Source: a virus
Lineage: Duplodnaviria > Heunggongvirae > Uroviricota > Caudoviricetes
Length of the DNA: 5,907 bases
Direction: 5' to 3' (one strand)
Virus record (IMG/VR): IMGVR_UViG_2681813320_000008
Location: 1 to 5,907 of that record
Below are positions 1 to 5,875 of this stretch, piece by piece; the first letter of the stretch is position 1, and every line of letters starts with the position of its first letter. The notes beneath the pieces were generated by a model. The model was not told the origin of the DNA, did no database searches, and was given only the letters and a program-made list of their open reading frames with translations. A program made the position numbers and the translations under genes.

Positions 1-111
1 GTGCTTTTGCCGTTACGCACCACCCCGTCAGTAGCTGAACAGGAGGGACAGCTGATAGAAACAGAAGCCACTGGAGCACCTCAAAAACACCATCATACAC
101 TAAATCAGTAA
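1..111 (+). CDS. 3-prime end of an upstream ORF running off the window edge; function unknown (possibly the hydrophilic C-terminal tail of a holin or late-region protein)
   Basis: Frame 1 is open from base 1 to TAA at 109-111 (VLLPLRTTPSVAEQEGQLIETEATGAPQKHHHTLNQ). Only 36 codons are visible, which has a substantial chance of being open at random. No family motif recognised. Confidence 0.2.
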   Translation: MLLPLRTTPSVAEQEGQLIETEATGAPQKHHHTLNQ

Positions 112-210
112 GTTGGCAGCATCACCGGCGACGGTAAGGGTATTCACGTCTTCCCGAAGCCTGGAAATGCTGTCGAGCAACTCCTGTAGAGAAATGGTGT
201 TATTGTCCAT
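100..210 (-). CDS. Hypothetical 36-aa protein (MDNNTISLQELLDSISRLREDVNTLTVAGDAANLLI), absent from the supplied ORF track
   Basis: ATG at 210-208 preceded by a Shine-Dalgarno-like TGAGGA with a 6-nt spacer (minus-strand reading of 225-211: TCATGAGGATTATTT); stop TAG at 102-100. Hydrophilic, helix-prone sequence. Short and unconfirmed; overlaps the partial + ORF convergently by 12 bp. Confidence 0.3.
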   Translation of the reverse strand: MDNNTISLQELLDSISRLREDVNTLTVAGDAANLLI

Positions 211-315: not shown

Positions 316-849
316 ATGAACGCAAAAATCAGATACGGCCTGTCGGCTGCCGTTCTGGCGCTGATTGCCGCTGGTGCGCCTGCGCCTGACATTCTCGACC
401 AGTTTCTGGATGAAAAGGAAGGCAATCACACCACGGCATACCGTGATGGTGCAGGTATCTGGACCATCTGCCGTGGTGCCATCATGGTGGATGGCAAACC
501 TGTCGTTCCGGGCATGAAGTTGTCGAAGGAAAAATGCGACCGGGTTAACGCCATTGAGCGTGATAAGGCGCTGGCATGGGTGGAGAAAAACATCAGAGTG
601 CCATTGAGTGAACCCCAGAAAGCGGGGATCGCGTCATTCTGTCCGTACAACATTGGCCCCGGTAAGTGTTTTCCGTCGACGTTTTATAAACGAATTAATG
701 CAGGTGATCGCAGGGGAGCGTGTGAGGCGATTCGCTGGTGGATTAAGGACGGTGGCAGGGACTGCCGTATTCGCTCAAATAACTGTTACGGTCAGGTATC
801 CCGTCGTGACCAGGAGAGCGCGCTGGCGTGCTGGGGAATCGACAGATAA
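316..849 (+). CDS. Phage endolysin, T4-lysozyme-like (GH24) with N-terminal signal-anchor-release (SAR) domain
   Basis: 177-aa ORF. N-terminus MNAKIRYGLSAAVLALIAAGAPAP has basic residues followed by a weakly hydrophobic Gly/Ala/Ser-rich segment, as in SAR endolysins. Catalytic triad spacing E-x8-D-x5-T (EGNHTTAYRDGAGIWT) matches T4 lysozyme E11/D20/T26. Overall pattern (GIWTICRG, KRINAGD, C-terminal CWG) resembles P21 R / P22 gp19-type lysozymes as recalled. No Shine-Dalgarno visible upstream of the ATG. Confidence 0.9.
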   Translation: MNAKIRYGLSAAVLALIAAGAPAPDILDQFLDEKEGNHTTAYRDGAGIWTICRGAIMVDGKPVVPGMKLSKEKCDRVNAIERDKALAWVEKNIRVPLSEPQKAGIASFCPYNIGPGKCFPSTFYKRINAGDRRGACEAIRWWIKDGGRDCRIRSNNCYGQVSRRDQESALACWGIDR

Positions 850-939
850 GCAGAATATTTTGCTAATAAATGACGTTGGCCAAGGCGGACGGATAACACG
901 AAATCCTGCGAACTGGCAAAATGTAAGTGAATAAAAGTA

Positions 940-977
940 AAAACCCCGTTTGTTGGCAGCAAGCGGGGTTTTGTTTT
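940..977 (+). terminator. Rho-independent terminator-like stem-loop, potentially bidirectional
   Basis: AAAACCCCG (940-948) pairs with CGGGGTTTT (964-972), extendable by inner T.G/T-A/T-A pairs to about 12 bp with a 9-nt loop; followed by a T-run (TTTTGTTTTT through 978) and preceded by an A-run, so the reverse strand gives the same structure. Lies about 90 bp downstream of the endolysin stop. Confidence 0.55.
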
Positions 978-1043
978 TATGGCAGTAAGCTATGGGAGGC
1001 TGCCTTGATTGATTTTAGCAAACTGATTAGGGAGTTGCGACTC

Positions 1044-1139
1044 ATGATTAGTCAATTACCAAACTGGAAATTTTTGCTGGTCTGGAGCATCCCTTTTTTA
1101 TGGGTAGTATCCCAGTTAATTGTGGCAATTAAGGGGTAG
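1044..1139 (+). CDS. Hypothetical 31-aa single-pass membrane peptide (MISQLPNWKFLLVWSIPFLWVVSQLIVAIKG)
   Basis: ATG at 1044 preceded by GGGAG (1030-1034, 9-nt spacer); Trp/Phe/Leu-rich hydrophobic core; stop TAG at 1137-1139 lies 2 nt before the next ORF start. The longer track ORF from 927 crosses the terminator hairpin and has no RBS, so only this C-terminal part is retained. Confidence 0.3.
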   Translation: MISQLPNWKFLLVWSIPFLWVVSQLIVAIKG

Positions 1140-1141
1140 CT

Positions 1142-1273
1142 ATGTCAGACAAACTCATAACGCCGGCAAAGGTCCTGTGTGTGATTGTCGGTATTTCATT
1201 TTCACTAATGCTGGTTGCTCTTTTTCTGTCCCTCGCCTGGGTGATGTTGTCTTCGTCGGGGCTGCTGGGGTGA
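1142..1273 (+). CDS. Hypothetical 43-aa single-pass membrane peptide (MSDKLITPAKVLCVIVGISFSLMLVALFLSLAWVMLSSSGLLG)
   Basis: ATG at 1142 preceded by a strong Shine-Dalgarno AAGGGG (1131-1136, 5-nt spacer); about 25-residue hydrophobic stretch; stop TGA at 1271-1273 overlaps the GTG start of the next ORF (GTGA). Not in the ORF track, probably due to a length cutoff. The overlapping track frame (1120-1392, TTG start) is Cys-rich and unprotein-like over this stretch. Confidence 0.5.
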   Translation: MSDKLITPAKVLCVIVGISFSLMLVALFLSLAWVMLSSSGLLG

Positions 1274-1392
1274 CAGTGACTGATGACATCAGCAGAGCGC
1301 TGGCTTTTGCTATTAAGTGGGTGGCTGTTGGTATTGCTGTGTCTCCGATGCTGTATGGGCTGGCAAAACTGGTCATTGCGCTGAAATCGTGA
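1270..1392 (+). CDS. Hypothetical 38-40-aa membrane peptide (...TDDISRALAFAIKWVAVGIAVSPMLYGLAKLVIALKS); paralog of the next ORF
   Basis: GTG start at 1270 overlapping the previous stop (GTGA), or alternatively GTG 1276 with GGGG 5 nt upstream; hydrophobic core; stop TGA 1390-1392. Clear similarity to the peptide at 1404-1490 (RALAFAIKWVAVGIAV versus [16 protein letters not shown]) supports this reading frame. Confidence 0.45.
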   Translation: MTVTDDISRALAFAIKWVAVGIAVSPMLYGLAKLVIALKS

Positions 1393-1403
1393 ACTTTAAA
1401 AAG

Positions 1404-1490
1404 ATGAGTGCTGAACTTATTCGGGCAATGGCATTTGCCATTCGTATTGTGGCCATTGCTGTTCTGGTCTGGGCAATCCGTTGGTGGTGA
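1404..1490 (+). CDS. Hypothetical 28-aa membrane peptide ([28 protein letters not shown]); paralog of the previous ORF
   Basis: ATG 1404; stop TGA 1488-1490 lies 1 nt before the Rz ATG at 1492. Hydrophobic helix with C-terminal RWW. No clear Shine-Dalgarno (AAAAAG upstream), so translation may rely on coupling. Confidence 0.35.
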
Positions 1491-1491
1491 T

Positions 1492-1959
1492 ATGAACCGT
1501 GTTCTGTGTGTGGTGATTATTGTCCTGCTGGTAGCCTGTGGTGTGCTTAGTCTGGGGCTGAATCATTACCGCGATAACGCCATCACCTACAAAGCGCAGC
1601 GCGATAAAAAAGTCAGTGAGCTGAAACTGGCGAACGCGACAATTACTGATATGCAGATACGCCAGCGTGATGTCGCTGAACTTGATGCCAGATACTCGAG
1701 GGAATTAGCCGATGCGAGAGCTGAAAATGAAACTCTGCGTGCTGATGTTGCCGCTGGTCGTAAGCGCCTGCGGATCAACGCCACCTGCTCCGGTACCGTG
1801 CGTGAAGCCACCGGCACCTCCGGCGTGGATAATGCAACCGGCCCCCGACTGGCAGACACCGCTGAACGGGATTATTTCATCCTCAGAGAACGGTTGATGA
1901 CAATGCAGAAGCAGCTGGAAGGGGCACAGGACTATATCCGCACTCAGTGCCTGAACTAA
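1492..1959 (+). CDS. Rz: i-spanin (inner-membrane spanin subunit), lambda Rz-like
   Basis: 155-aa product [39 protein letters not shown]... with N-terminal transmembrane domain and coiled-coil periplasmic region; near-colinear with lambda Rz as recalled ([34 protein letters not shown]). Start trimmed from the track's GTG 1408 to ATG 1492 by that alignment. Confidence 0.9.
1712..1897 (+). CDS. Rz1: o-spanin (outer-membrane lipoprotein spanin subunit), lambda Rz1-like, embedded in the +1 frame of Rz
   Basis: 61-aa ORF wholly inside Rz in another frame. Lipoprotein signal with lipobox LVVSAC, proline-rich mature region [32 protein letters not shown] closely matching lambda Rz1 as recalled ([32 protein letters not shown]). 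The start could instead be the internal ATG at 1727. Confidence 0.85.
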
Positions 1960-2279: not shown

Positions 2280-2297
2280 TCTGTGCGGGGAATGAAA

Positions 2298-2624
2298 ATG
2301 AAAAGAAATCTTCCGTTAATTATTTTGTTGTCTTCTCTGGTTATGGGCTGTACGCAACATAAAACAGATATGCCCCGACAGTTGGTTAAGGCATTACCAC
2401 AATATCCGGCCTATGCAGCGGCAAATTATATAAAGGGACGGGTTGATGTGAGGTTTGATATTGGTGCTGATGGTACTGTCACCCGAATTGAGTTTATTCG
2501 TTCAGAGCCGCACCATCTGTTTGATGAGCAGGTTGTAAAGGCGATGGCAAAATGGCGATTTGAGAAGGACAGGCCGTGTAAAGGCGTGAAGAAAACGTTT
2601 ATCTTTAGTCCTTCTGCGCACTGA
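2298..2624 (+). CDS. Lipoprotein with TonB C-terminal-like domain (phage moron candidate)
   Basis: 108-aa product MKRNLPLIILLSSLVMGC... with basic n-region, hydrophobic core and lipobox-like LVMGC. Mature part carries the TonB C-terminal pattern PQYPAYAAANYIKGRVDVRFDIGADGTVTRIEFIRSEPHHLFDEQVVKAMAKWRFEKD...KKTFIF (YP..A...G.V.V.F.I..DG.V......S...LFD..V..A...W.F). It lacks the proline-rich spacer and N-terminal membrane anchor of true TonB. Start chosen at ATG 2298 (GGGG 7 nt upstream) rather than the track's GTG 2283. Confidence 0.75.
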   Translation: MKRNLPLIILLSSLVMGCTQHKTDMPRQLVKALPQYPAYAAANYIKGRVDVRFDIGADGTVTRIEFIRSEPHHLFDEQVVKAMAKWRFEKDRPCKGVKKTFIFSPSAH

Positions 2625-2755: not shown

Positions 2756-2956
2756 TCATTTCTCGTTATTTGTCATGCTGGCCGGGCGCAGATGCGTTGC
2801 ATCTGTTGCCAGCCTTCTCCTGCAGGCTTCAATAACCCACGCTGAAAAGTTACCGGACCCTTTATGCTCAAGGGCGATGTTGATCTGTTCAATCATGTGA
2901 TTGGGGAAACGGATATTGCGGGTTGTGGTTCTGCGGGTACGGTTTTTCGATGACAT
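2756..2956 (-). CDS. Small ribbon-helix-helix DNA-binding protein, YlcI/YnfO-like (DUF3950 family) as recalled from E. coli cryptic prophages
   Basis: 66-aa product MSSKNRTRRTTTRNIRFPNHMIEQINIALEHKGSGNFSAWVIEACRRRLATDATHLRPASMTNNEK: basic N-terminus, a beta-strand-like NIRFP followed by two helices (an Arc/CopG-like arrangement). Start set at ATG 2956 with a strong RBS (AAGGA, 7-nt spacer) instead of the track's upstream ATG 3016, which would overlap the HNH gene start. Confidence 0.65.
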   Translation of the reverse strand: MSSKNRTRRTTTRNIRFPNHMIEQINIALEHKGSGNFSAWVIEACRRRLATDATHLRPASMTNNEK

Positions 2957-2997
2957 ATTTATTTCCTTTACTGATTGCCATATGACGGGGATTTTAC

Positions 2998-3363
2998 ATG
3001 GCTGAGCTTCGTACACTCCAGAGCAGAATCAAAACACTGAATACCCGACGGGTGAATATTCTGAAGGGTGAACAGCGTCGTGTCAGTGGCAGTGCACGTG
3101 TTTCCCTCAAGCGTCATATCTGGCTCAGGGATGCCGGGCAGTGCTGTCTCTGTGGTCGTGTGGTTGACCTCTGTGACAGTGAACTCGATCACCGAATTGC
3201 ACTTCAGTTCGGTGGTGGTAATGAGGAGACGAATCTCTGGACGCTCTGTACCGAATGCCATCGACAAAAGTCTGCTCGTGAAGCGGCGAGTGATATGCCG
3301 GACCCGACGCTGCCGGAGGTGTCCGGAGGTAGTGGCAGAGAGGACGACATCATCGGACTGTAA
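2998..3363 (+). CDS. HNH endonuclease, phage packaging-associated
   Basis: 121-aa product with two CxxC pairs (CCLCG, CTEC) and the HNH core DHRIALQFGGGNEETNLWTLCTECH; sits immediately upstream of the putative cos region and terminase genes, the arrangement known for HK97-type cos phages (gp74). RBS ACGGGGA 7 nt upstream of the ATG. Confidence 0.85.
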   Translation: MAELRTLQSRIKTLNTRRVNILKGEQRRVSGSARVSLKRHIWLRDAGQCCLCGRVVDLCDSELDHRIALQFGGGNEETNLWTLCTECHRQKSAREAASDMPDPTLPEVSGGSGREDDIIGL

Positions 3364-3653
3364 CCCGACCCCGGGGGGGTATCATCCGGCGTAAAAAACG
3401 ATCGCTTTGGACACCGCGCCCCCTCTCACGCAGAGAAAAAATTCCCGTTTCAGGGCAGTTAACATGTTAACTGGCTGCCCGGGCATTTTTGCGGTTTTTA
3501 TCTTTATTATTCAGTTTGTTGTGCGGAAAAAATGTTAACAGGCTTTTTCAGCAAATGTTAACCAGGCAGCAGTTAACATTTGCGGCATGAGACGCCGGGA
3601 AAAATGGGCTGAACCATACCCGGCTGAGTGCGTTCTGGACCCGGGAGGAGGCT
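3364..3653. other. Putative cos / packaging-initiation region (non-coding, between HNH endonuclease and terminase small subunit)
   Basis: 290-bp non-coding gap in the position where cos lies in HK97-like and lambda-like genomes; contains a CCCCGGGGGGG tract (3369-3379), A/T-tract-rich, probably bent DNA (3485-3530) and clustered GTTAAC-containing repeats. The exact cosN nick sites cannot be assigned from sequence alone. Confidence 0.4.
3456..3581. repeat. Cluster of five GTTAACAT/ATGTTAAC motifs: an 18-bp perfect palindrome (3456-3473), a solitary copy (3532-3539) and an inverted repeat with 10-bp arms and a 9-bp spacer (3553-3581)
   Basis: Directly seen: CAGTTAACATGTTAACTG (3456-3473) is self-complementary; AAATGTTAAC (3553-3562) and GTTAACATTT (3572-3581) are reverse complements; ATGTTAAC also occurs at 3532-3539. 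Five copies of an 8-mer in 126 bp is far above chance. Function (terminase small-subunit sites, or operator for the RHH protein) is inferred. Confidence 0.6.
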
Positions 3654-4217
3654 GTGCTGACAACGCAAAAACGAAAATTTGCGCTGGCGCTCATGTCCGG
3701 GAAAAACAAAACAGCGTCAGCCATTGCCGCCGGTTATTCGGCGAAGACCGCCAGGGTTAAAGGCTCGCAGCTGGCAAAAGATCCTGAGGTGCTTGCGTTT
3801 ATAGCCCGTAAACAATGCGAGACGGTGGAGGTGGATGAGGTTCCTGTTTACCGGCAGAAAAAATCAGAGCAGGAGGATAAACCCCGTCGCCGTGAGGCGG
3901 CTGCAATACCACAGCCGGACGAAAACAATCCGGAGATGCCACCGTCCGCGGTGATGTCTCCTGGTATTGAATATATGGAGGATGGTCTTCCCGATCCGGT
4001 GAAAGCCATGGGGCGGATCCTGGTGGAAAACCTCTGCATTGATCCGAAACTGGCACTGGATGCGGCCTGGCGTCTGGCGCAGTTCACGCACCATAAAAAA
4101 GGGGATACCGGGAAAAAATCGGCAAAAGGTGATGCCGCGAAAAAAGCGGCTAACCGTTTTGCGGTGCCACCGCCCCCCCGACTGGTGGTGAATAACGATA
4201 ATGAGGGCAACGGATGA
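3654..4217 (+). CDS. terS: Terminase small subunit (Terminase_2-like, N-terminal helix-turn-helix)
   Basis: 187-aa product; N-terminal KRKFALALMSGKNKTASAIAAGYSAKTARVKGSQLAKDPEV fits the TerS HTH pattern (AGYS.KTA); charged low-complexity C-terminus; stop overlaps the terminase large subunit start (ATGA at 4214-4217). GTG start at 3654 with GGAGG 5 nt upstream. Confidence 0.8.
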   Translation: MLTTQKRKFALALMSGKNKTASAIAAGYSAKTARVKGSQLAKDPEVLAFIARKQCETVEVDEVPVYRQKKSEQEDKPRRREAAAIPQPDENNPEMPPSAVMSPGIEYMEDGLPDPVKAMGRILVENLCIDPKLALDAAWRLAQFTHHKKGDTGKKSAKGDAAKKAANRFAVPPPPRLVVNNDNEGNG

Positions 4218-5875
4218 TACCTGTATGGAGCACAGCCTGCCCGGACTGGGCAGAGCGCCTGAAAAAGGGGCTGTCGATTATTCCGGATCCGATTTATCCG
4301 GACGAGGCCGCACATGCCCTGGCGATTTTTAAACAACTGCGGATTGTGGATGCACCTGGTAGCCCTACGTTCGGGGAGTCCTGTGCACCGTGGGTGTTTG
4401 ACCTGGTGGCGGCCCTGTTTGGCTCCTACGATGCGCAGACCGGTGTACGCCATATCAAGGAAGTTTTTATCCTTATCCCCAAGAAAAACTCGAAGTCCAC
4501 GCTGGCCGCGGGGATCATGATGACTGCACTGTTACTGAACTGGCGGCAGGCGGCGGGTTACACGATTCTGGCCCCGACTGTGGAGGTGGCGGCCAACGCC
4601 TTCAACCCTGCCCGGGATATGGTACGACGTGACGATGATCTGGATGACCTCTGCCAGGTACAGACCCATATCCGGACCATCACCCACCGAGTGACGGACA
4701 CCACCCTGAAGGTGGTGGCAGCCGATCCGAATACGGTGTCCGGTATCAAGTCCGTGGGTACGCTGATTGATGAGTTGTGGCTGTTTGGCAAGCAGTGCAA
4801 GGCGGAGGACATGTTACGTGAAGCCATAGGCGGCCTTGCCTCCCGCCCGGAAGGGTTTGTGGTGTATACGACCACCCAGTCGAATGAACCGCCCGCCGGG
4901 GTGTTCAGACAGAAACTGCAGTACGCCCGGGATGTGCGCGACGGCAAAATTCATGATCCGCACTTTCTGCCGGTGATATTTGAACACCCTCCTGAAATGG
5001 TGGAAAGCGGGGCTAACCTGCTGATGGAAAACCTCGCCATGGTCAATCCGAATCTCGGCTATTCAGTGGATGAGGCCTTTCTGTACCGGGAGTACCGTAA
5101 AGCCCGGGAAGCCGGTGAAGAGACATTCCGGGGGTTCATGTCAAAACACGCCAATGTGGAAATTGGTCTTGCCCTGCGCTCTGACCGCTGGGCGGGGGCT
5201 GATTTCTGGGAAGAGCAGGGCCGTTGTATCAGCCTGGACGATATCCTGCGTCGTGCTGATGTGGTGACGGTGGGGATTGACGGCGGAGGGCTGGATGATC
5301 TGCTGGGGATGTATGTGACTGGGCGTGACCGGGAGACCCGCGAATGGCTGGGCTGGGGCCATGCCTGGGCGCATGAAACCGCGGTGGTCCGACGGAAGAG
5401 CGAGGCGTCCCGGTTTCAGGATCTTGTTGCCTGTGGAGATATGACCATTGTCCGGCGTGTCGGGGATGACACGGCGGAAGTGGCGGAATATGTGCGTCGC
5501 ATTCATGAGGCTGAGTTACTGGACCATATCGGTATTGACCCGTCAGGGGTGGGGCAGATTCTGGATTCACTGGCGGAAGCCGGGATCCCCGACGGAATTG
5601 TGGTGGGGATAAGCCAGGGCTGGAAACTGGGCGGGGCCATTAAAACCACCGAGCGCAAACTGGCTGAAGGGGTGCTGGTGCATGGTGACCAGCCCCTGAT
5701 GGCCTGGTGTGTCGGCAATGCCCGGGTGGAGCCTAAAGGTAACGCCATTCTTATCACCAAACAGGCCAGTGGACGGGGAAAAATTGACCCGCTGATGGCG
5801 CTGTTCAATGCGGTCTCCCTGATGTCCCTTAACCCGGAACCGAAAAAGAAAGAATATGCGGTTTTTTTCATATAA
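4214..5875 (+). CDS. terL: Terminase large subunit (Terminase_1 / HK97-like ATPase-nuclease)
   Basis: 553-aa product; Walker A-like ILIPKKNSKST; Walker B-like hydrophobic stretch ending LIDE; C-terminal nuclease-domain pattern (VTVGIDGGGLDDL ... KIDPLMALFNAVSLMS) typical of the family; translationally coupled to terS. Confidence 0.92.
   Translation: MIPVWSTACPDWAERLKKGLSIIPDPIYPDEAAHALAIFKQLRIVDAPGSPTFGESCAPWVFDLVAALFGSYDAQTGVRHIKEVFILIPKKNSKSTLAAGIMMTALLLNWRQAAGYTILAPTVEVAANAFNPARDMVRRDDDLDDLCQVQTHIRTITHRVTDTTLKVVAADPNTVSGIKSVGTLIDELWLFGKQCKAEDMLREAIGGLASRPEGFVVYTTTQSNEPPAGVFRQKLQYARDVRDGKIHDPHFLPVIFEHPPEMVESGANLLMENLAMVNPNLGYSVDEAFLYREYRKAREAGEETFRGFMSKHANVEIGLALRSDRWAGADFWEEQGRCISLDDILRRADVVTVGIDGGGLDDLLGMYVTGRDRETREWLGWGHAWAHETAVVRRKSEASRFQDLVACGDMTIVRRVGDDTAEVAEYVRRIHEAELLDHIGIDPSGVGQILDSLAEAGIPDGIVVGISQGWKLGGAIKTTERKLAEGVLVHGDQPLMAWCVGNARVEPKGNAILITKQASGRGKIDPLMALFNAVSLMSLNPEPKKKEYAVFFI

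What the first reader, a model, noticed from the sequence alone, without database searches (positions are those of the whole stretch)
1044..1490. Four translationally coupled mini-ORFs for single-pass hydrophobic peptides inserted between the SAR endolysin and Rz/Rz1
In lambda the endolysin gene is followed directly by Rz/Rz1. Here about 640 bp lie between them, holding a terminator hairpin and then four back-to-back ORFs of 28-43 codons (1044-1139, 1142-1273, 1270-1392, 1404-1490). Each encodes one hydrophobic helix, with stop/start spacings of 2 nt, a GTGA overlap, and 1 nt before Rz. This packing, plus a strong Shine-Dalgarno for the second ORF, argues that they are expressed rather than random open frames in a spacer. 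No canonical two-TMD pinholin gene is recognisable next to this SAR endolysin inside the window, so the peptides could be an unconventional holin/antiholin set. They could equally be membrane-depolarising toxin-like peptides (size and composition recall type I toxins such as TisB or ShoB) or a lysis-timing or exclusion module. Three of the four are missing from the standard ORF track.
Basis: partly seen in the sequence, partly recalled or inferred. Interest (0 to 1): 0.75.

Follow-up and report, generated by a model that had tools for sequence, protein, structure and literature searches.

The report
Mobile mini membrane-peptide genes in prophages
The four tiny ORFs between the endolysin and spanin genes are real, conserved genes for one-helix membrane peptides, carried on small shuffled cassettes that ride the late operons of many enterobacterial prophages; they are not a substitute holin, and their design (upstream terminator, masked ribosome site, predicted antisense promoter) suggests tightly silenced, late-acting membrane toxins of unknown role.

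Summary
Four same-strand mini-ORFs tile 1005-1490 behind a terminator hairpin (940-972); 0 of 2000 shuffles give four or more hydrophobic ORFs. Related sequences show coding signatures: in-frame pN/pS is 0.36 (o1 family), 0.47 (o2), 0.18 (o3) and about 0.15 (o4 core), against 0.7-3.3 off-frame. o1 probably starts at TTG 1005 (44 aa). o3 and o4 are N-truncated paralogs of 50-60 aa proteins.

The holin reading fails. Intact relatives carry a canonical S21 pinholin upstream of R; here an IS1 (1-126) cuts that side off. The units shuffle between prophages. The o1 unit is a roughly 220-bp cassette (hairpin, leader, ORF). It follows four endolysin types, precedes at least two Pfam spanin families, and also sits inside tail and baseplate operons.

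All 47 intact cassette variants carry a covarying hairpin, and most a leader that pairs with the ribosome-binding site. None has a sense promoter. Codons 3-12 hold an extended -10 and a -35 on the opposite strand, at synonymous sites that do not vary. That predicts an antisense RNA of about 80 nt.

Most likely these are antisense-guarded, late-expressed, membrane-active peptides built like type I toxins. Their function is untested. No family, structure or paper matched.

The parts
940..972 (+). GC-rich hairpin with an A-tract before and a T-tract after (a bidirectional intrinsic terminator). It is the first element of the mini-gene cassette.
   Evidence: Terminator scan: 15 pairs. Conserved in all 47 intact cassette variants (of 51 unique), with dG -19 to -28 kcal/mol. 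Seven of 12 pairs show compensatory changes; 93% of cells are paired against 85% in shuffles (0/500).
976..1004 (+). Leader carrying the Shine-Dalgarno GGGAGG (994-999) inside a small stem-loop (981-985 pairs with 1000-1004).
   Evidence: Sequence and fold. In most other cassettes the equivalent leader pairs UUCU/AGAA and CCUUG/CAAGG over the SD, with compensatory changes in 3 of 8 pairs. No sigma-70-like sense promoter is found here in any architecture.
It has an N-terminal amphipathic helix plus one hydrophobic helix. It is the 'IKG' C-terminal variant of the DFSKLIRELR...W(K/R)F family (phrog_6632).
   Evidence: PHROG hit. The family occurs in Escherichia, Salmonella, Enterobacter, Citrobacter, Klebsiella, Providencia, Cronobacter and Trabulsiella, at a constant 44-45 aa. 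pN/pS is 0.36 in frame against 0.72 and 1.79 off frame. AF2 predicts helices 4-17 and 20-43, pLDDT 79.
1012..1040 (-). Predicted antisense promoter inside o1 codons 3-12: -35 TCGCAA (1040-1035), 17-nt spacer, extended -10 TGcTAAAAT (1020-1012).
   Evidence: The same element lies at +8..+36 in every intact o1-family cassette. Synonymous sites of codons 2-6 and 10-12 are invariant while codons 7-9 and most later codons vary. The non-homologous o3-long and o4-long heads carry TAGTCA-18-TATACT and TGGACA-18-TATACT at the same geometry. This is a prediction only.
930..1005 (-). Predicted antisense RNA of about 75-80 nt. It would start near the o1 start codon, carry the anti-SD CCUCCC in a 5' loop, and end at the hairpin and U-tract.
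   Evidence: Fold of window:928-1006:- gives -21.9 kcal/mol, z -3.4. The A-tract upstream of the hairpin is conserved. No Rfam family matches. This is inferred, not shown.
1142..1273 (+). o2: 43-aa peptide MSDKLI... with one strongly hydrophobic helix (phrog_4906) and its own strong SD, AAGGGG.
   Evidence: 103 protein clusters, all Escherichia, with a constant 43-aa length; S2 D3 K4 L5 I6 are nearly invariant. pN/pS is 0.47 in frame against 0.73 and 1.25. The summed Hessa dG is -3.5. It occurs after ant in Stx phages and after o3 in other prophages. It is disrupted by indels in 16 of 213 copies.
1270..1392 (+). o3: 38-40-aa peptide (GTG 1270 or 1276). It is an N-truncated copy of the 60-aa protein M(E/R)KYKRILLRLTMKNGLELKAPVTDD..AFAIKWVAVGIAVSPMLYGLAKLVIALKS (phrog_1115/4493).
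   Evidence: The family occurs in E. coli, E. marmotae and Salmonella. Variable sites by codon position are 13/7/28. pN/pS is 0.18 against 1.05 and 3.32. 0 of 214 copies are broken. The Val codon at the new start is GTG in all window-type arrays but GTA in all long forms.
1389..1490 (+). o4: 28 aa from ATG 1404, or 33 aa from GTG 1389 (a GTGA overlap with the o3 stop). It is a paralog of o3 and an N-truncated copy of a 50-aa form. Its last codons, RWW-stop, carry the Rz ribosome-binding site.
   Evidence: o3/o4 similarity z is 5.4-6.2; alignment. Core pN/pS is 0.15 against the long form. 1 of 128 copies is gapped.
1492..1959 (+). Rz i-spanin, with Rz1 embedded at 1712-1897. This is the downstream neighbour and is given for context; the last mini-ORF always stops 1-10 nt before it.
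   Evidence: Pfam Phage_lysis 7.5e-50 and Rz1 1.7e-21. Junctions.
316..849 (+). R: a lysozyme with a weakly hydrophobic N-terminal helix (SAR type). This is the upstream neighbour and is given for context.
   Evidence: Pfam Phage_lysozyme 1.3e-23. Hessa sum for the N-terminal helix is +3.1.

Best explanation
The R-Rz spacer is an accessory slot in the phage late operon. It holds an array of four real mini-genes for single-helix inner-membrane peptides.

Families:
- o1, o3 and o4 belong to one superfamily. It has a variable cytoplasmic head, one helix, and a tail ending ..RWW, ..IKG or ..LYGLAKL..KS.
- o2 is a second family.

The cassette at the head of the array is self-contained and about 220 bp long. 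It consists of:
- a bidirectional terminator hairpin;
- a leader that holds the Shine-Dalgarno inside a hairpin;
- a 44-45-codon ORF whose first 12 codons carry, on the opposite strand, an extended -10/-35 promoter-like element aimed back at the hairpin.

Proposed mechanism (inferred):
1. In the lysogen the terminator blocks read-through.
2. A short antisense RNA covers the ribosome-binding site, so the peptides stay silent.
3. After induction, Q-antiterminated late transcription reads through the hairpin and out-titrates the antisense RNA.
4. The peptides are made together with the lysis and virion proteins, by coupled translation along the array.
5. They insert into the cytoplasmic membrane and perturb it late in infection.
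6. The most plausible pay-off is tuning or securing the timing of membrane de-energisation and lysis. Any late membrane function would fit equally.

The peptides are not the holin. They are not specific to SAR endolysins or to one spanin family.

Status of each claim:
- Shown: ORF reality, families, shuffling, cassette boundaries, hairpin and leader covariation, the synonymous-site constraint, and independence from the holin/endolysin type.
- Inferred: membrane insertion, the antisense RNA, late-only expression, toxicity, and any role in lysis.
For: Coding signatures and constant ORF lengths in all four families.

Wide distribution. Part of the spacer is present in 2078 of 5426 complete E. coli genomes, and at least 80% of it in 587. 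It also occurs in plaque-forming phages PhiR5/PhiR12 and, for o2, in Stx phages.

Combinatorial architectures: o1-o2-o3-o4, o3L-o2, o3L-o4, o4L, oC, ant-o2 and GH108-o65-o3-o2.

Cassette boundaries. Homology between unrelated contexts runs only from -85 to +137 relative to the ORF start.

Contexts. The families follow four endolysin types and the o1 family precedes at least two Pfam spanin families. The o1 family also lies between baseplate V and W in 21-23 of 80 loci, and between tail I and J. The mini-gene is always co-oriented with the late genes.

Hairpin and leader structure show covariation: score 0.30 against 0.14 in shuffles (0/500) and at most 0.12 when the partners are slid.

No sense promoter follows the hairpin in any of 10 architectures.

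Antisense promoter-like element. It lies at identical geometry in three sub-families with non-homologous heads. Synonymous sites are invariant in the two hexamers and free in the spacer.

Predicted antisense RNA fold: -21.9 kcal/mol, z -3.4.

Helical, hydrophobic peptides.
Against: - There are no expression data of any kind.
- The -35 of the o1-type antisense promoter is weak (3/6), and only the extended -10 is good.
- Conservation of codons 2-6 could instead reflect constraints on translation initiation.
- A real terminator inside a baseplate operon (V-W) would be polar on essential genes unless that phage antiterminates or the hairpin is leaky. This fits poorly with a strong insulator.
- o3 and o4 in this window lack the head, hairpin and antisense element. 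Within the window-type array only 14 polymorphisms exist (5 synonymous, 7 non-synonymous), so selection on the truncated copies cannot be shown.
- o2 is broken in 16 of 213 copies, so it is dispensable at least in some prophages.
- o1 and o3 helices are only marginally hydrophobic on the Hessa scale.
- This prophage is IS1-disrupted and may be defective.
Confidence: 0.5

Rival explanations
1. Lysogen-expressed morons. The peptides would be made from the resident prophage and benefit it or the host. They might exclude superinfecting phages by blocking DNA entry through an inner-membrane transporter, or modulate a host membrane protein, as small host peptides such as SgrT or MgrB do.
For: The cassettes behave like morons. 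They are inserted between genes that are adjacent in other phages and occur in the tail-gene region, where exclusion morons are typically found. The peptides are small single-pass membrane peptides. The families are patchy and fast-shuffling, as expected for accessory or conflict genes.
Against: No sense promoter follows the hairpin in any architecture. A terminator lies directly upstream, and the SD is masked or placed under a predicted antisense RNA. All of this argues against expression in the lysogen. There are no PADLOC hits.
Confidence: 0.2
2. A bona fide type I toxin-antitoxin module. Its job would be prophage maintenance or abortive infection rather than the phage's own lysis: the stable toxin mRNA kills when the labile antisense RNA is lost.
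For: The peptides are under 70 aa, carry a hydrophobic helix and an aromatic or polar C-terminus (RWW), and occur as tandem paralogs. These are the search criteria of Fozo et al. 2010 (PMC2887945). There is a predicted cis-antisense RNA over the RBS, and the leader is structured.
Against: The toxin gene has no promoter of its own, so no toxin mRNA pool is expected in the lysogen. No homology to known type I toxin families was found in Pfam or NCBIfam, and no Rfam antitoxin matched. The cassette is always co-oriented inside late operons, which points to phage-timed expression.
Confidence: 0.15
3. An unconventional holin/antiholin or lysis-timing set dedicated to the SAR endolysin, or a releasin-like helper for SAR endolysin release.
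For: The position lies between R and Rz. The peptides are single helices. o3's helix is as weakly hydrophobic as a SAR domain. o3 has a local similarity to S21 TMD2 (KWVAVGIAVSPMLYGL against QWVAIGVLGSLLFGL, z 3.5-4.4). One database protein is a chimera of the S21 N-terminus and the o3 C-terminus (P0223).
Against: Canonical S21 pinholin with a dual start is present in relatives. hhalign probability is 2%, equal to the control. There are no Pfam holin or DUF2730 (releasin) hits. The same peptides accompany non-SAR endolysins (GH108, M15) and different holins, and the o1 family occurs outside lysis cassettes altogether.
Confidence: 0.07
4. Recombination debris. The array, especially the head-less o3 and o4, would be a patchwork of gene fragments left by mosaic recombination in a hot spot. 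On this view the fragments are kept open only because the array is young, and the 3' end of o4 is conserved merely as the Rz ribosome-binding site.
For: o3 and o4 lack the N-terminal 20-22 residues, the hairpin and the antisense element of their full-length relatives. The window-type array is nearly invariant: 15 variants in 117 copies and 14 polymorphisms. o2 is frameshifted in some lineages.
Against: The same core sequences are under purifying selection across contexts. 0 of 214 o3 copies and 1 of 128 o4 copies are broken. Both truncated genes acquired start codons in GTGA overlap with the preceding stop, and o3's start arose through a GTA to GTG change found in all window-type arrays. The array is present in 587 complete E. 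coli genomes.
Confidence: 0.08

Closest known systems
Type I toxin-antitoxin systems (hok/sok, ibs/sib, ldr/rdl, zor/orz, symE/symR; prophage-borne examples such as hokD in Qin)
   Same: The peptide is under 70 aa with a hydrophobic helix and an aromatic or polar C-terminus, and paralogs occur in tandem. The leader is structured and hides the ribosome-binding site. A short cis-antisense RNA is predicted to overlap the start region and end at a terminator. Features of the class are taken from PMC2887945.
   Different: There is no promoter for the peptide gene; it depends on phage late transcription. The unit is embedded co-directionally in lysis, tail or baseplate operons and moves as a 220-bp cassette. 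There is no sequence homology to any known toxin or antitoxin family. Toxicity and the RNA are untested.
Phage cis-antisense control of a harmful gene (P22 sar RNA over the ant ribosome-binding site; lambda OOP). Recalled from established knowledge, not tested here.
   Same: In both, a small antisense RNA starts just inside the 5' end of the gene and covers its ribosome-binding site, keeping a dangerous phage gene quiet.
   Different: The target here is a 44-60-aa membrane peptide, not an antirepressor or regulator. The antisense terminator doubles as an upstream insulator. The unit is mobile between operons.
Morons of lambdoid phages (Juhala et al. 2000 concept; for example bor, lom, HK97 gp15). 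Recalled, not tested.
   Same: These are extra genes inserted between genes that are adjacent in related phages. They are patchy in distribution, occur in tail and lysis regions, and have boundaries at gene edges.
   Different: A classical moron has its own promoter upstream and a terminator downstream, and is expressed in the lysogen. Here the terminator is upstream, there is no sense promoter, and the design suppresses expression in the lysogen.
Pinholin S21 / antiholin S21-71 and other holins
   Same: Both are small membrane proteins of the lysis cassette, made late and preceded by a terminator that only antiterminated polymerase passes (as tR' precedes S in lambda; recalled). o3's helix has a G-x3-S motif resembling S21 TMD2.
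   Different: The peptides have one helix instead of two, no dual-start motif and no charged C-terminal tail. They lie downstream of the endolysin. There is no family match. The real S21 pinholin is present in relatives.
Accessory lysis membrane proteins: Mu releasin gp25 (DUF2730; PMC9239132), P2 LysA, P1 LydB/C/D
   Same: These are extra membrane-tethered proteins in lysis cassettes that modulate when or how the endolysin acts.
   Different: There is no DUF2730 or other Pfam hit. The peptides are much smaller, are not restricted to SAR endolysins, and are also found outside lysis cassettes.

Membership tests
Pinholin / class II holin (S21 family) | Two transmembrane domains, the first a SAR-like helix | tested here: not met
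   Each peptide has a single hydrophobic segment. AF2 of o1 shows one amphipathic and one long hydrophobic helix.
Pinholin / class II holin (S21 family) | Sequence membership (Pfam holin model or profile similarity to S21) | tested here: not met
   No Pfam hit at E<=1. hhalign of A1 against the S21 alignment gives probability 2%, the same as the unrelated control A1 against A2 at 1.65%.
Pinholin / class II holin (S21 family) | Gene immediately upstream of the endolysin, with a dual-start (holin/antiholin) motif | tested here: not met
   The peptides lie downstream of R. The true dual-start holin (MYQMEK..., 71/68 aa) sits upstream of R in relatives.
Type I toxin-antitoxin | Small (<70 aa) hydrophobic peptide with a polar or aromatic C-terminus, often in tandem copies (PMC2887945) | tested here: met
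   The peptides are 28-44 aa with hydrophobic helices. C-termini are RWW, IKG and LKS. o1, o3 and o4 are tandem paralogs.
Type I toxin-antitoxin | Antisense RNA antitoxin overlapping the toxin mRNA | tested here: inconclusive
   A promoter-like element on the minus strand lies at +8..+36 in three sub-families, with constrained synonymous sites and a bidirectional terminator at the right distance. No transcript data are available and there is no Rfam match.
Type I toxin-antitoxin | Toxin gene with its own promoter | tested here: not met
   No sigma-70-like sense promoter lies between the hairpin and the ORF in 10 architectures, even at 8/12 matches.
Type I toxin-antitoxin | Growth arrest or membrane depolarisation on expression | not testable with these tools
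   This needs inducible expression and membrane-potential assays.
Type I toxin-antitoxin | Homology to a known toxin family (Hok, Ldr/Fst, Ibs, TisB, ShoB, Zor, DinQ) | tested here: not met
   No Pfam or NCBIfam hits.
Moron | Extra gene between genes that are adjacent in related phages | tested here: met
   rrrQ and rzpQ overlap in Qin. The same cassette lies between V and W, or between I and J, in other prophages.
Moron | Own promoter upstream and terminator downstream; expressed in the lysogen | tested here: not met
   The terminator is upstream and no sense promoter is present. Expression was not testable.
Spanin (Rz/Rz1, u-spanin) | Periplasmic coiled-coil domain (i-spanin) or lipobox (o-/u-spanin) | tested here: not met
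   The peptides end 1-10 residues after the helix and have no lipobox. Rz and Rz1 proper are downstream.
Releasin (Mu gp25, DUF2730) | DUF2730 membership: N-terminal TMD plus cytoplasmic domain | tested here: not met
   No Pfam hit. Family definition from PMC9239132.
Known anti-phage defence proteins | Match to a PADLOC model | tested here: not met
   0 families for 7 peptides.

The most novel reading that the evidence does not exclude
The window carries members of an undescribed class of mobile genetic unit. Each is a roughly 220-bp, promoter-less 'terminator-first' cassette encoding a small membrane toxin. The cassette is locked by its own cis-antisense RNA and a masked ribosome-binding site, and is unlocked only by antiterminated or late phage transcription. 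Such cassettes would hop between lysis, tail and baseplate operons of enterobacterial prophages, including Stx phages for the o2 partner. They would act as a plug-in late killing or lysis-timing device.
Probability: 0.3. Interest if true: 0.8.

Novelty: new variant of a known kind. Interest (0 to 1): 0.6.

Why it matters
Part of this spacer is present in about 38% of complete E. coli genomes. It is also found in Salmonella, Enterobacter, Citrobacter and Klebsiella prophages and, for o2, in Shiga-toxin phages. Even so, no family, structure or paper names these peptides.

If they are late-expressed membrane toxins, they add an unrecognised, horizontally swappable component to the textbook holin-endolysin-spanin scheme. 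That could influence lysis timing, and hence Stx release.

The cassette would also be a compact natural example of three-layer silencing: a terminator, a masked SD and an antisense RNA. It would extend the type I toxin concept to promoter-less units that borrow phage late transcription.

The predictions are sharp and cheap to test: an RNA of about 80 nt on the minus strand, specific start codons, toxicity, and a lysis-time phenotype.

Tried and rejected
- **Family libraries.** Pfam, NCBIfam, PADLOC, PDB-sequence and Rfam searches on all peptides and on the region found nothing. PHROGs gave only families of unknown function.
- **Literature.** Searches by RefSeq accession, by peptide words and by topic found no paper on these ORFs.
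- **Homology of o3 to pinholin TMD2.** A local alignment was suggestive (z 3.5-4.4), but profile-profile comparison was at control level. Rejected as unproven.
- **Origin of o2 from the Rz N-terminal anchor** (shared VLCV). Not significant, z 1.25.
- **The AIRWW match between o4 and R.** z 3.6, treated as coincidence.
- **The long alternative reading of o3** (1120-1392, 90 aa, as in phrog_3246, and PGAP's 51-aa start). The frame over the o2 region has pN/pS 1.25, so it is not supported. The embedded hydrophobic ORF 1283-1384 is likewise not supported (pN/pS 1.05).
- **PGAP's 70-aa o1 from GTG 927.** It would run through the terminator hairpin. Rejected in favour of TTG 1005.
- **A minus-strand promoter-like site at 1148-1119**. 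It is not conserved in other cassettes.
- **Amphipathicity.** Hydrophobic-moment analysis was not discriminating.
- **Genome-contig scan with Rz.** It returned only one locus.
- **Scans that keep the best 80 hits.** Those built on the o2 and o3 alignments gave little diversity.
- **Selection within the window-type array.** Untestable, with only 14 polymorphisms.
- **Synonymous-site profile for o3-long.** Uninformative, because the sequences are too close.
- **Source genome.** No complete E. coli genome in the collection holds the IS1/R junction. The source genome is unknown.
Full report
**Context**

The window is the late region of a lambdoid prophage of the E. coli group. Pfam and PHROGs identify these genes:
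- a lysozyme R with a weakly hydrophobic N-terminal helix (316-849);
- Rz (1492-1959) with embedded Rz1 (1712-1897);
- a TonB_C lipoprotein (2283-2624);
- a DUF3950 protein (2756-3016, minus strand);
- an HNH endonuclease (2998-3363);
- small and large terminase subunits (3654-4217 and 4214-5875).

Bases 1-126 are an IS1 end. From base 127 onward the window is identical to E. coli EC931, where the order is class II holin, YdfR, a minus-strand hypothetical gene, lysozyme. The IS1 sits inside that minus-strand gene. The pinholin side of the cassette therefore lies beyond the insertion.

Relatives in IMG/VR all carry a canonical S21-type pinholin with the dual start MYQMEK... (71/68 aa). This removes the main reason for suspecting an unconventional holin.

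**The observation**

- four + strand ORFs;
- 2 nt between the o1 stop and the o2 ATG;
- a GTGA overlap between o2 and o3;
- 1 nt between the o4 stop and the Rz ATG;
- an AAGGGG Shine-Dalgarno for o2;
- a 15-pair terminator at 940-972.

None of 2000 dinucleotide shuffles of 1005-1491 gives four or more hydrophobic ORFs of at least 28 codons.

Three refinements follow from comparison with relatives:
- o1 starts at TTG 1005, behind GGGAGG (994-999).
- o4 can start at GTG 1389, a second GTGA overlap.
- o3 and o4 are truncated.

RefSeq already lists all four as hypothetical proteins. PHROGs holds them as unknown-function families 6632, 4906 and 1115/4493/3246.

**Are they genes?**

Part of the spacer is present in 2078 of 5426 complete E. 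coli genomes, and at least 80% of it in 587. Parts of it occur in 324 phage records, mostly Stx phages.

I collected about 340 related loci and protein clusters from 5.8 billion sequences.

| Family | Distribution | In-frame pN/pS | Off-frame pN/pS | Other evidence |
|---|---|---|---|---|
| o3 | E. coli, E. marmotae, Salmonella | 0.18 | 1.05, 3.32 | variable sites by codon position 13/7/28; 0 of 214 copies broken |
| o4 core (vs 50-aa form) | E. coli prophages | 0.15 | 1.81, 2.68 | 1 of 128 copies gapped |
| o2 | 103 clusters, all Escherichia | 0.47 | 0.73, 1.25 | constant 43 codons; nearly invariant polar N-terminus MSDKLI; 16 of 213 copies carry indels |
| o1 | eight genera | 0.36 | 0.72, 1.79 | constant 44-45 codons; GTG or TTG start |

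The eight genera holding the o1 family are Escherichia, Salmonella, Enterobacter, Citrobacter, Klebsiella, Providencia, Cronobacter and Trabulsiella.

An exhaustive HMM search of 1.84 billion representatives finds only 49 relatives of o1. All are 24-86 aa and none is fused to another domain.

Within the window-type array itself there are only 14 polymorphisms. Selection on the truncated o3 and o4 cannot be measured there.

**Families**

- o3 and o4 are paralogs (z 5.4-6.2).
- Their full-length forms begin M(E/R)KYKR(I/F)(L/F)LRL... and run 60 and 50 aa.
- The window copies lack those heads. Each begins with a GTG that overlaps the preceding stop.
- For o3, the Val codon that serves as a start is GTG in every window-type array and GTA in every long form.
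- o1 is homologous to a 45-aa 'RWW' form, here called oC (z 14.6).
- Distant o1 relatives end ..SSPF(L/M)(Y/F)G(L/V)A(K/R)L.., like o3. So o1, oC, o3 and o4 form one superfamily.
- o2 is separate.

Biophysics:
- o2 has a strongly hydrophobic helix and o4 a moderate one. o1 and o3 are marginal, about as weak as R's SAR helix.
- AF2 models o1 as helix 4-17 plus helix 20-43, pLDDT 79.

**Context**

The units are shuffled. The following architectures occur:
- R-o1-o2-o3-o4-Rz
- R-o3L-o2-Rz
- R-o3L-o4-Rz
- R-o4L-Rz
- R-oC-Rz
- R-ant-o2-Rz (Stx phages)
- antlike-o1-o2-o3-o4 (PhiR5_1)
- GH108 endolysin, a 65-aa peptide, o3-like, o2-like, then a small lipoprotein

The peptides are independent of the holin and endolysin type:
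- In Salmonella, o3L follows a Phage_holin_2_3 holin and a 161-aa lysozyme.
- The o1 family follows GH19, M15-peptidase and SAR-lysozyme endolysins, and in two loci a GH108 endolysin.
- It lies directly upstream of Rz (PF03245), of DUF2570/LysC spanins, or in Enterobacter of an overlapping pair of small genes that look like spanins but have no Pfam hit.

The o1 family also occurs outside lysis cassettes:
- between tail genes I and J in Citrobacter;
- between baseplate V and W in Klebsiella and Enterobacter.

In a sample of 80 diverse IMG/VR loci:
- about 47 are endolysin-[mini]-spanin;
- 21-23 are V-[mini]-W/J;
- 1 is I..J;
- 7 are unclassified.

In every locus the mini-gene is co-oriented with the flanking late genes.

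Between unrelated contexts, nucleotide homology runs only from about -85 to +137 relative to the ORF start. That defines a cassette of about 220 bp.

**Cassette anatomy**

All 47 intact cassette variants (of 51 unique sequences) have a stable hairpin at about -75 to -30, with dG -19 to -28 kcal/mol. An A-tract lies before it and a T-tract after it.

Structure was tested on 21 diverse leaders:
- 7 of the 12 hairpin pairs show compensatory changes.
- Two further helices (UUCU/AGAA and CCUUG/CAAGG) pair with the Shine-Dalgarno. Three of these 8 pairs show compensatory changes.
- 93% of cells are paired against 85% in shuffles (0/500).
- The covariation score is 0.30, against 0.14 in shuffles and at most 0.12 when the partners are slid.

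No sigma-70-like sense promoter lies between hairpin and ORF in any of 10 architectures, even at 8 of 12 matches.

On the opposite strand, every intact o1-family cassette has TGcTAAAAT (or TAATAT or TAAGAT) at +16..+8. This is an extended -10. TCGCAA lies 17 nt upstream of it.

In 41 unique ORFs the synonymous sites behave as follows:
- Codons 2-6 (ATT GAT TTT AGC AAA) show no synonymous variation.
- Codons 10-12 (GAG TTG CGA, including a rare Arg codon) show almost none.
- Codons 7-9, which form the would-be spacer, vary freely. So do most later codons.

The heads of o3L and o4L are not homologous to o1. Yet they carry TAGTCA-18-TATACT (9/12) and TGGACA-18-TATACT (10/12) at the same +37..+8 geometry. 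In those regions the tool lists these as the only or best promoter-like sites.

A transcript from this promoter would start at about the start codon, run over the SD and end at the hairpin. In the window this is the minus strand from about 1005 to about 930. It folds into a 5' stem-loop with the anti-SD CCUCCC in its loop, followed by the terminator.

**Mechanism**

Shown:
- the ORFs are real genes, and their families are defined;
- the units shuffle, and the cassette has defined limits;
- the RNA structure is conserved;
- nucleotide-level constraint inside codons 2-12 matches an antisense promoter;
- there is no sense promoter;
- the cassettes are co-oriented with late operons;
- they are independent of holin, endolysin and spanin type.

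Inferred:
- The peptides are kept off in the lysogen by the terminator, by SD masking and by an antisense RNA.
- They are made only when antiterminated late transcription passes.
- Translation is coupled down the array.
- They act in the inner membrane late in infection.

Three layers of silencing suggest a harmful, membrane-active product. I therefore favour a late toxin or lysis-timing accessory. I hold the role with low confidence, about 0.3, and the architecture with high confidence.

One point fits badly. A strong terminator between baseplate genes V and W should be polar on the essential genes downstream.

**Comparison with known systems**

The design is closest to two known kinds:
- type I toxin-antitoxin loci (criteria from PMC2887945);
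- phage cis-antisense control such as P22 sar (recalled, not tested).

It differs from both in three ways. The peptide gene has no promoter. The unit is embedded in late operons. It is a mobile cassette.

It is not a member of the S21 holin family, the spanins, the DUF2730 releasin family (PMC9239132), any known type I toxin family or any PADLOC defence family.

No paper in the searchable library names these peptides. Subscription-only literature could not be searched.

**Verdict**

What is new is the terminator-first, antisense-guarded mini-gene cassette and its spread across operons and genera.

Noticed in passing
window 1-126 and 100-210 (minus strand): An IS1 terminal sequence occupies 1-126 (identical to IS1 copies on thousands of plasmids). 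It truncates a minus-strand hypothetical gene that is intact in E. coli EC931. The holin and ydfR side of the lysis cassette is cut away, so this prophage is probably defective. No complete E. coli genome in the collection has this exact junction (an IS1-rich Shigella source is a guess).
   Followed up: yes
window 2283-2624: This is a lipoprotein with a TonB C-terminal domain (Pfam TonB_C 9.7e-15), sitting in the position where lambda has bor. PHROGs files it under phrog_1267 'Rz-like spanin', which looks like an annotation carried over from its neighbour.
   Followed up: partly
window 850-935; L092 about 3470-3500: The roughly 90 bp after the R stop codon (GCAGAATATTTTGCT...GGATAACACGAAATCC...) is conserved in all E. 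coli architectures and partly in Salmonella. Its first 24 bases recur after the small lipoprotein gene in the GH108-type cassette. It may be a mosaic boundary or recombination joint; its function is unknown.
   Followed up: partly
L092-L094, 2617-3461: This is an E. coli prophage lysis cassette with holin_8, holin_3_7 and a GH108 endolysin. These are followed by a hairpin, a 65-aa membrane protein, an o3-like 38-aa and an o2-like 44-aa peptide, and a 51-60-aa lipoprotein (phrog_7528, unknown function). No recognisable Rz/Rz1-type spanin lies before the terminase genes. Whether this phage lacks spanins, or these small proteins replace them, is open.
   Followed up: partly
protein P0223 (ENA, 554-bp contig): This is a chimeric 59-aa protein. 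The N-terminal 36 residues come from the S21 pinholin and are joined, at the shared W-V-A-(I/V)-G-V motif, to the C-terminal 23 residues of o3. It is probably a microhomology-mediated deletion that removed the rest of S, R and the o3 head. It is a single instance.
   Followed up: partly
L088 2975-3003; L086 2322-2349: In Salmonella o3-long and E. coli o4-long cassettes, a 25-nt insertion in the leader creates an 8-codon upstream ORF (MCREVYSL or MGREVLSL). Its stop overlaps the GTG start of the peptide gene as GTGA, and the insertion adds a second SD.
   Followed up: no
L069-L071, L076, L097, L098, L101, L103, L104, L107, L110, L111 (o2 region): One lineage of o3L-o2 prophages carries an 11-nt deletion that frameshifts o2. 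Three other loci have a 1-nt indel near its start. o2 is therefore dispensable at least in resident prophages.
   Followed up: yes
L033 and 7 similar loci (oC gene, codon 12): The conserved CGA (Arg12) is TGA in 8 loci. This splits the 45-codon ORF and leaves a 32-33-codon ORF that restarts at the overlapping GTG/ATG. The change also alters the predicted antisense -35 hexamer.
   Followed up: no
window 1120-1392 and 1283-1384 (+ strand); 1155-1376 (minus strand): Alternative-frame ORFs overlap o2 and o3. They include the 90-aa reading used by phrog_3246 and a hydrophobic 33-aa ORF. They stay open in relatives but show no purifying selection (pN/pS 1.05-3.3).
   Followed up: yes
L258 1946-2460: In the Citrobacter tail-region slot, the mini-gene cassette is preceded by another inserted gene. 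That gene encodes a 131-aa lipoprotein and has its own downstream terminator. The cassette itself is followed by a second strong terminator just before gene J. This makes a stack of accessory units between tail genes I and J.
   Followed up: no
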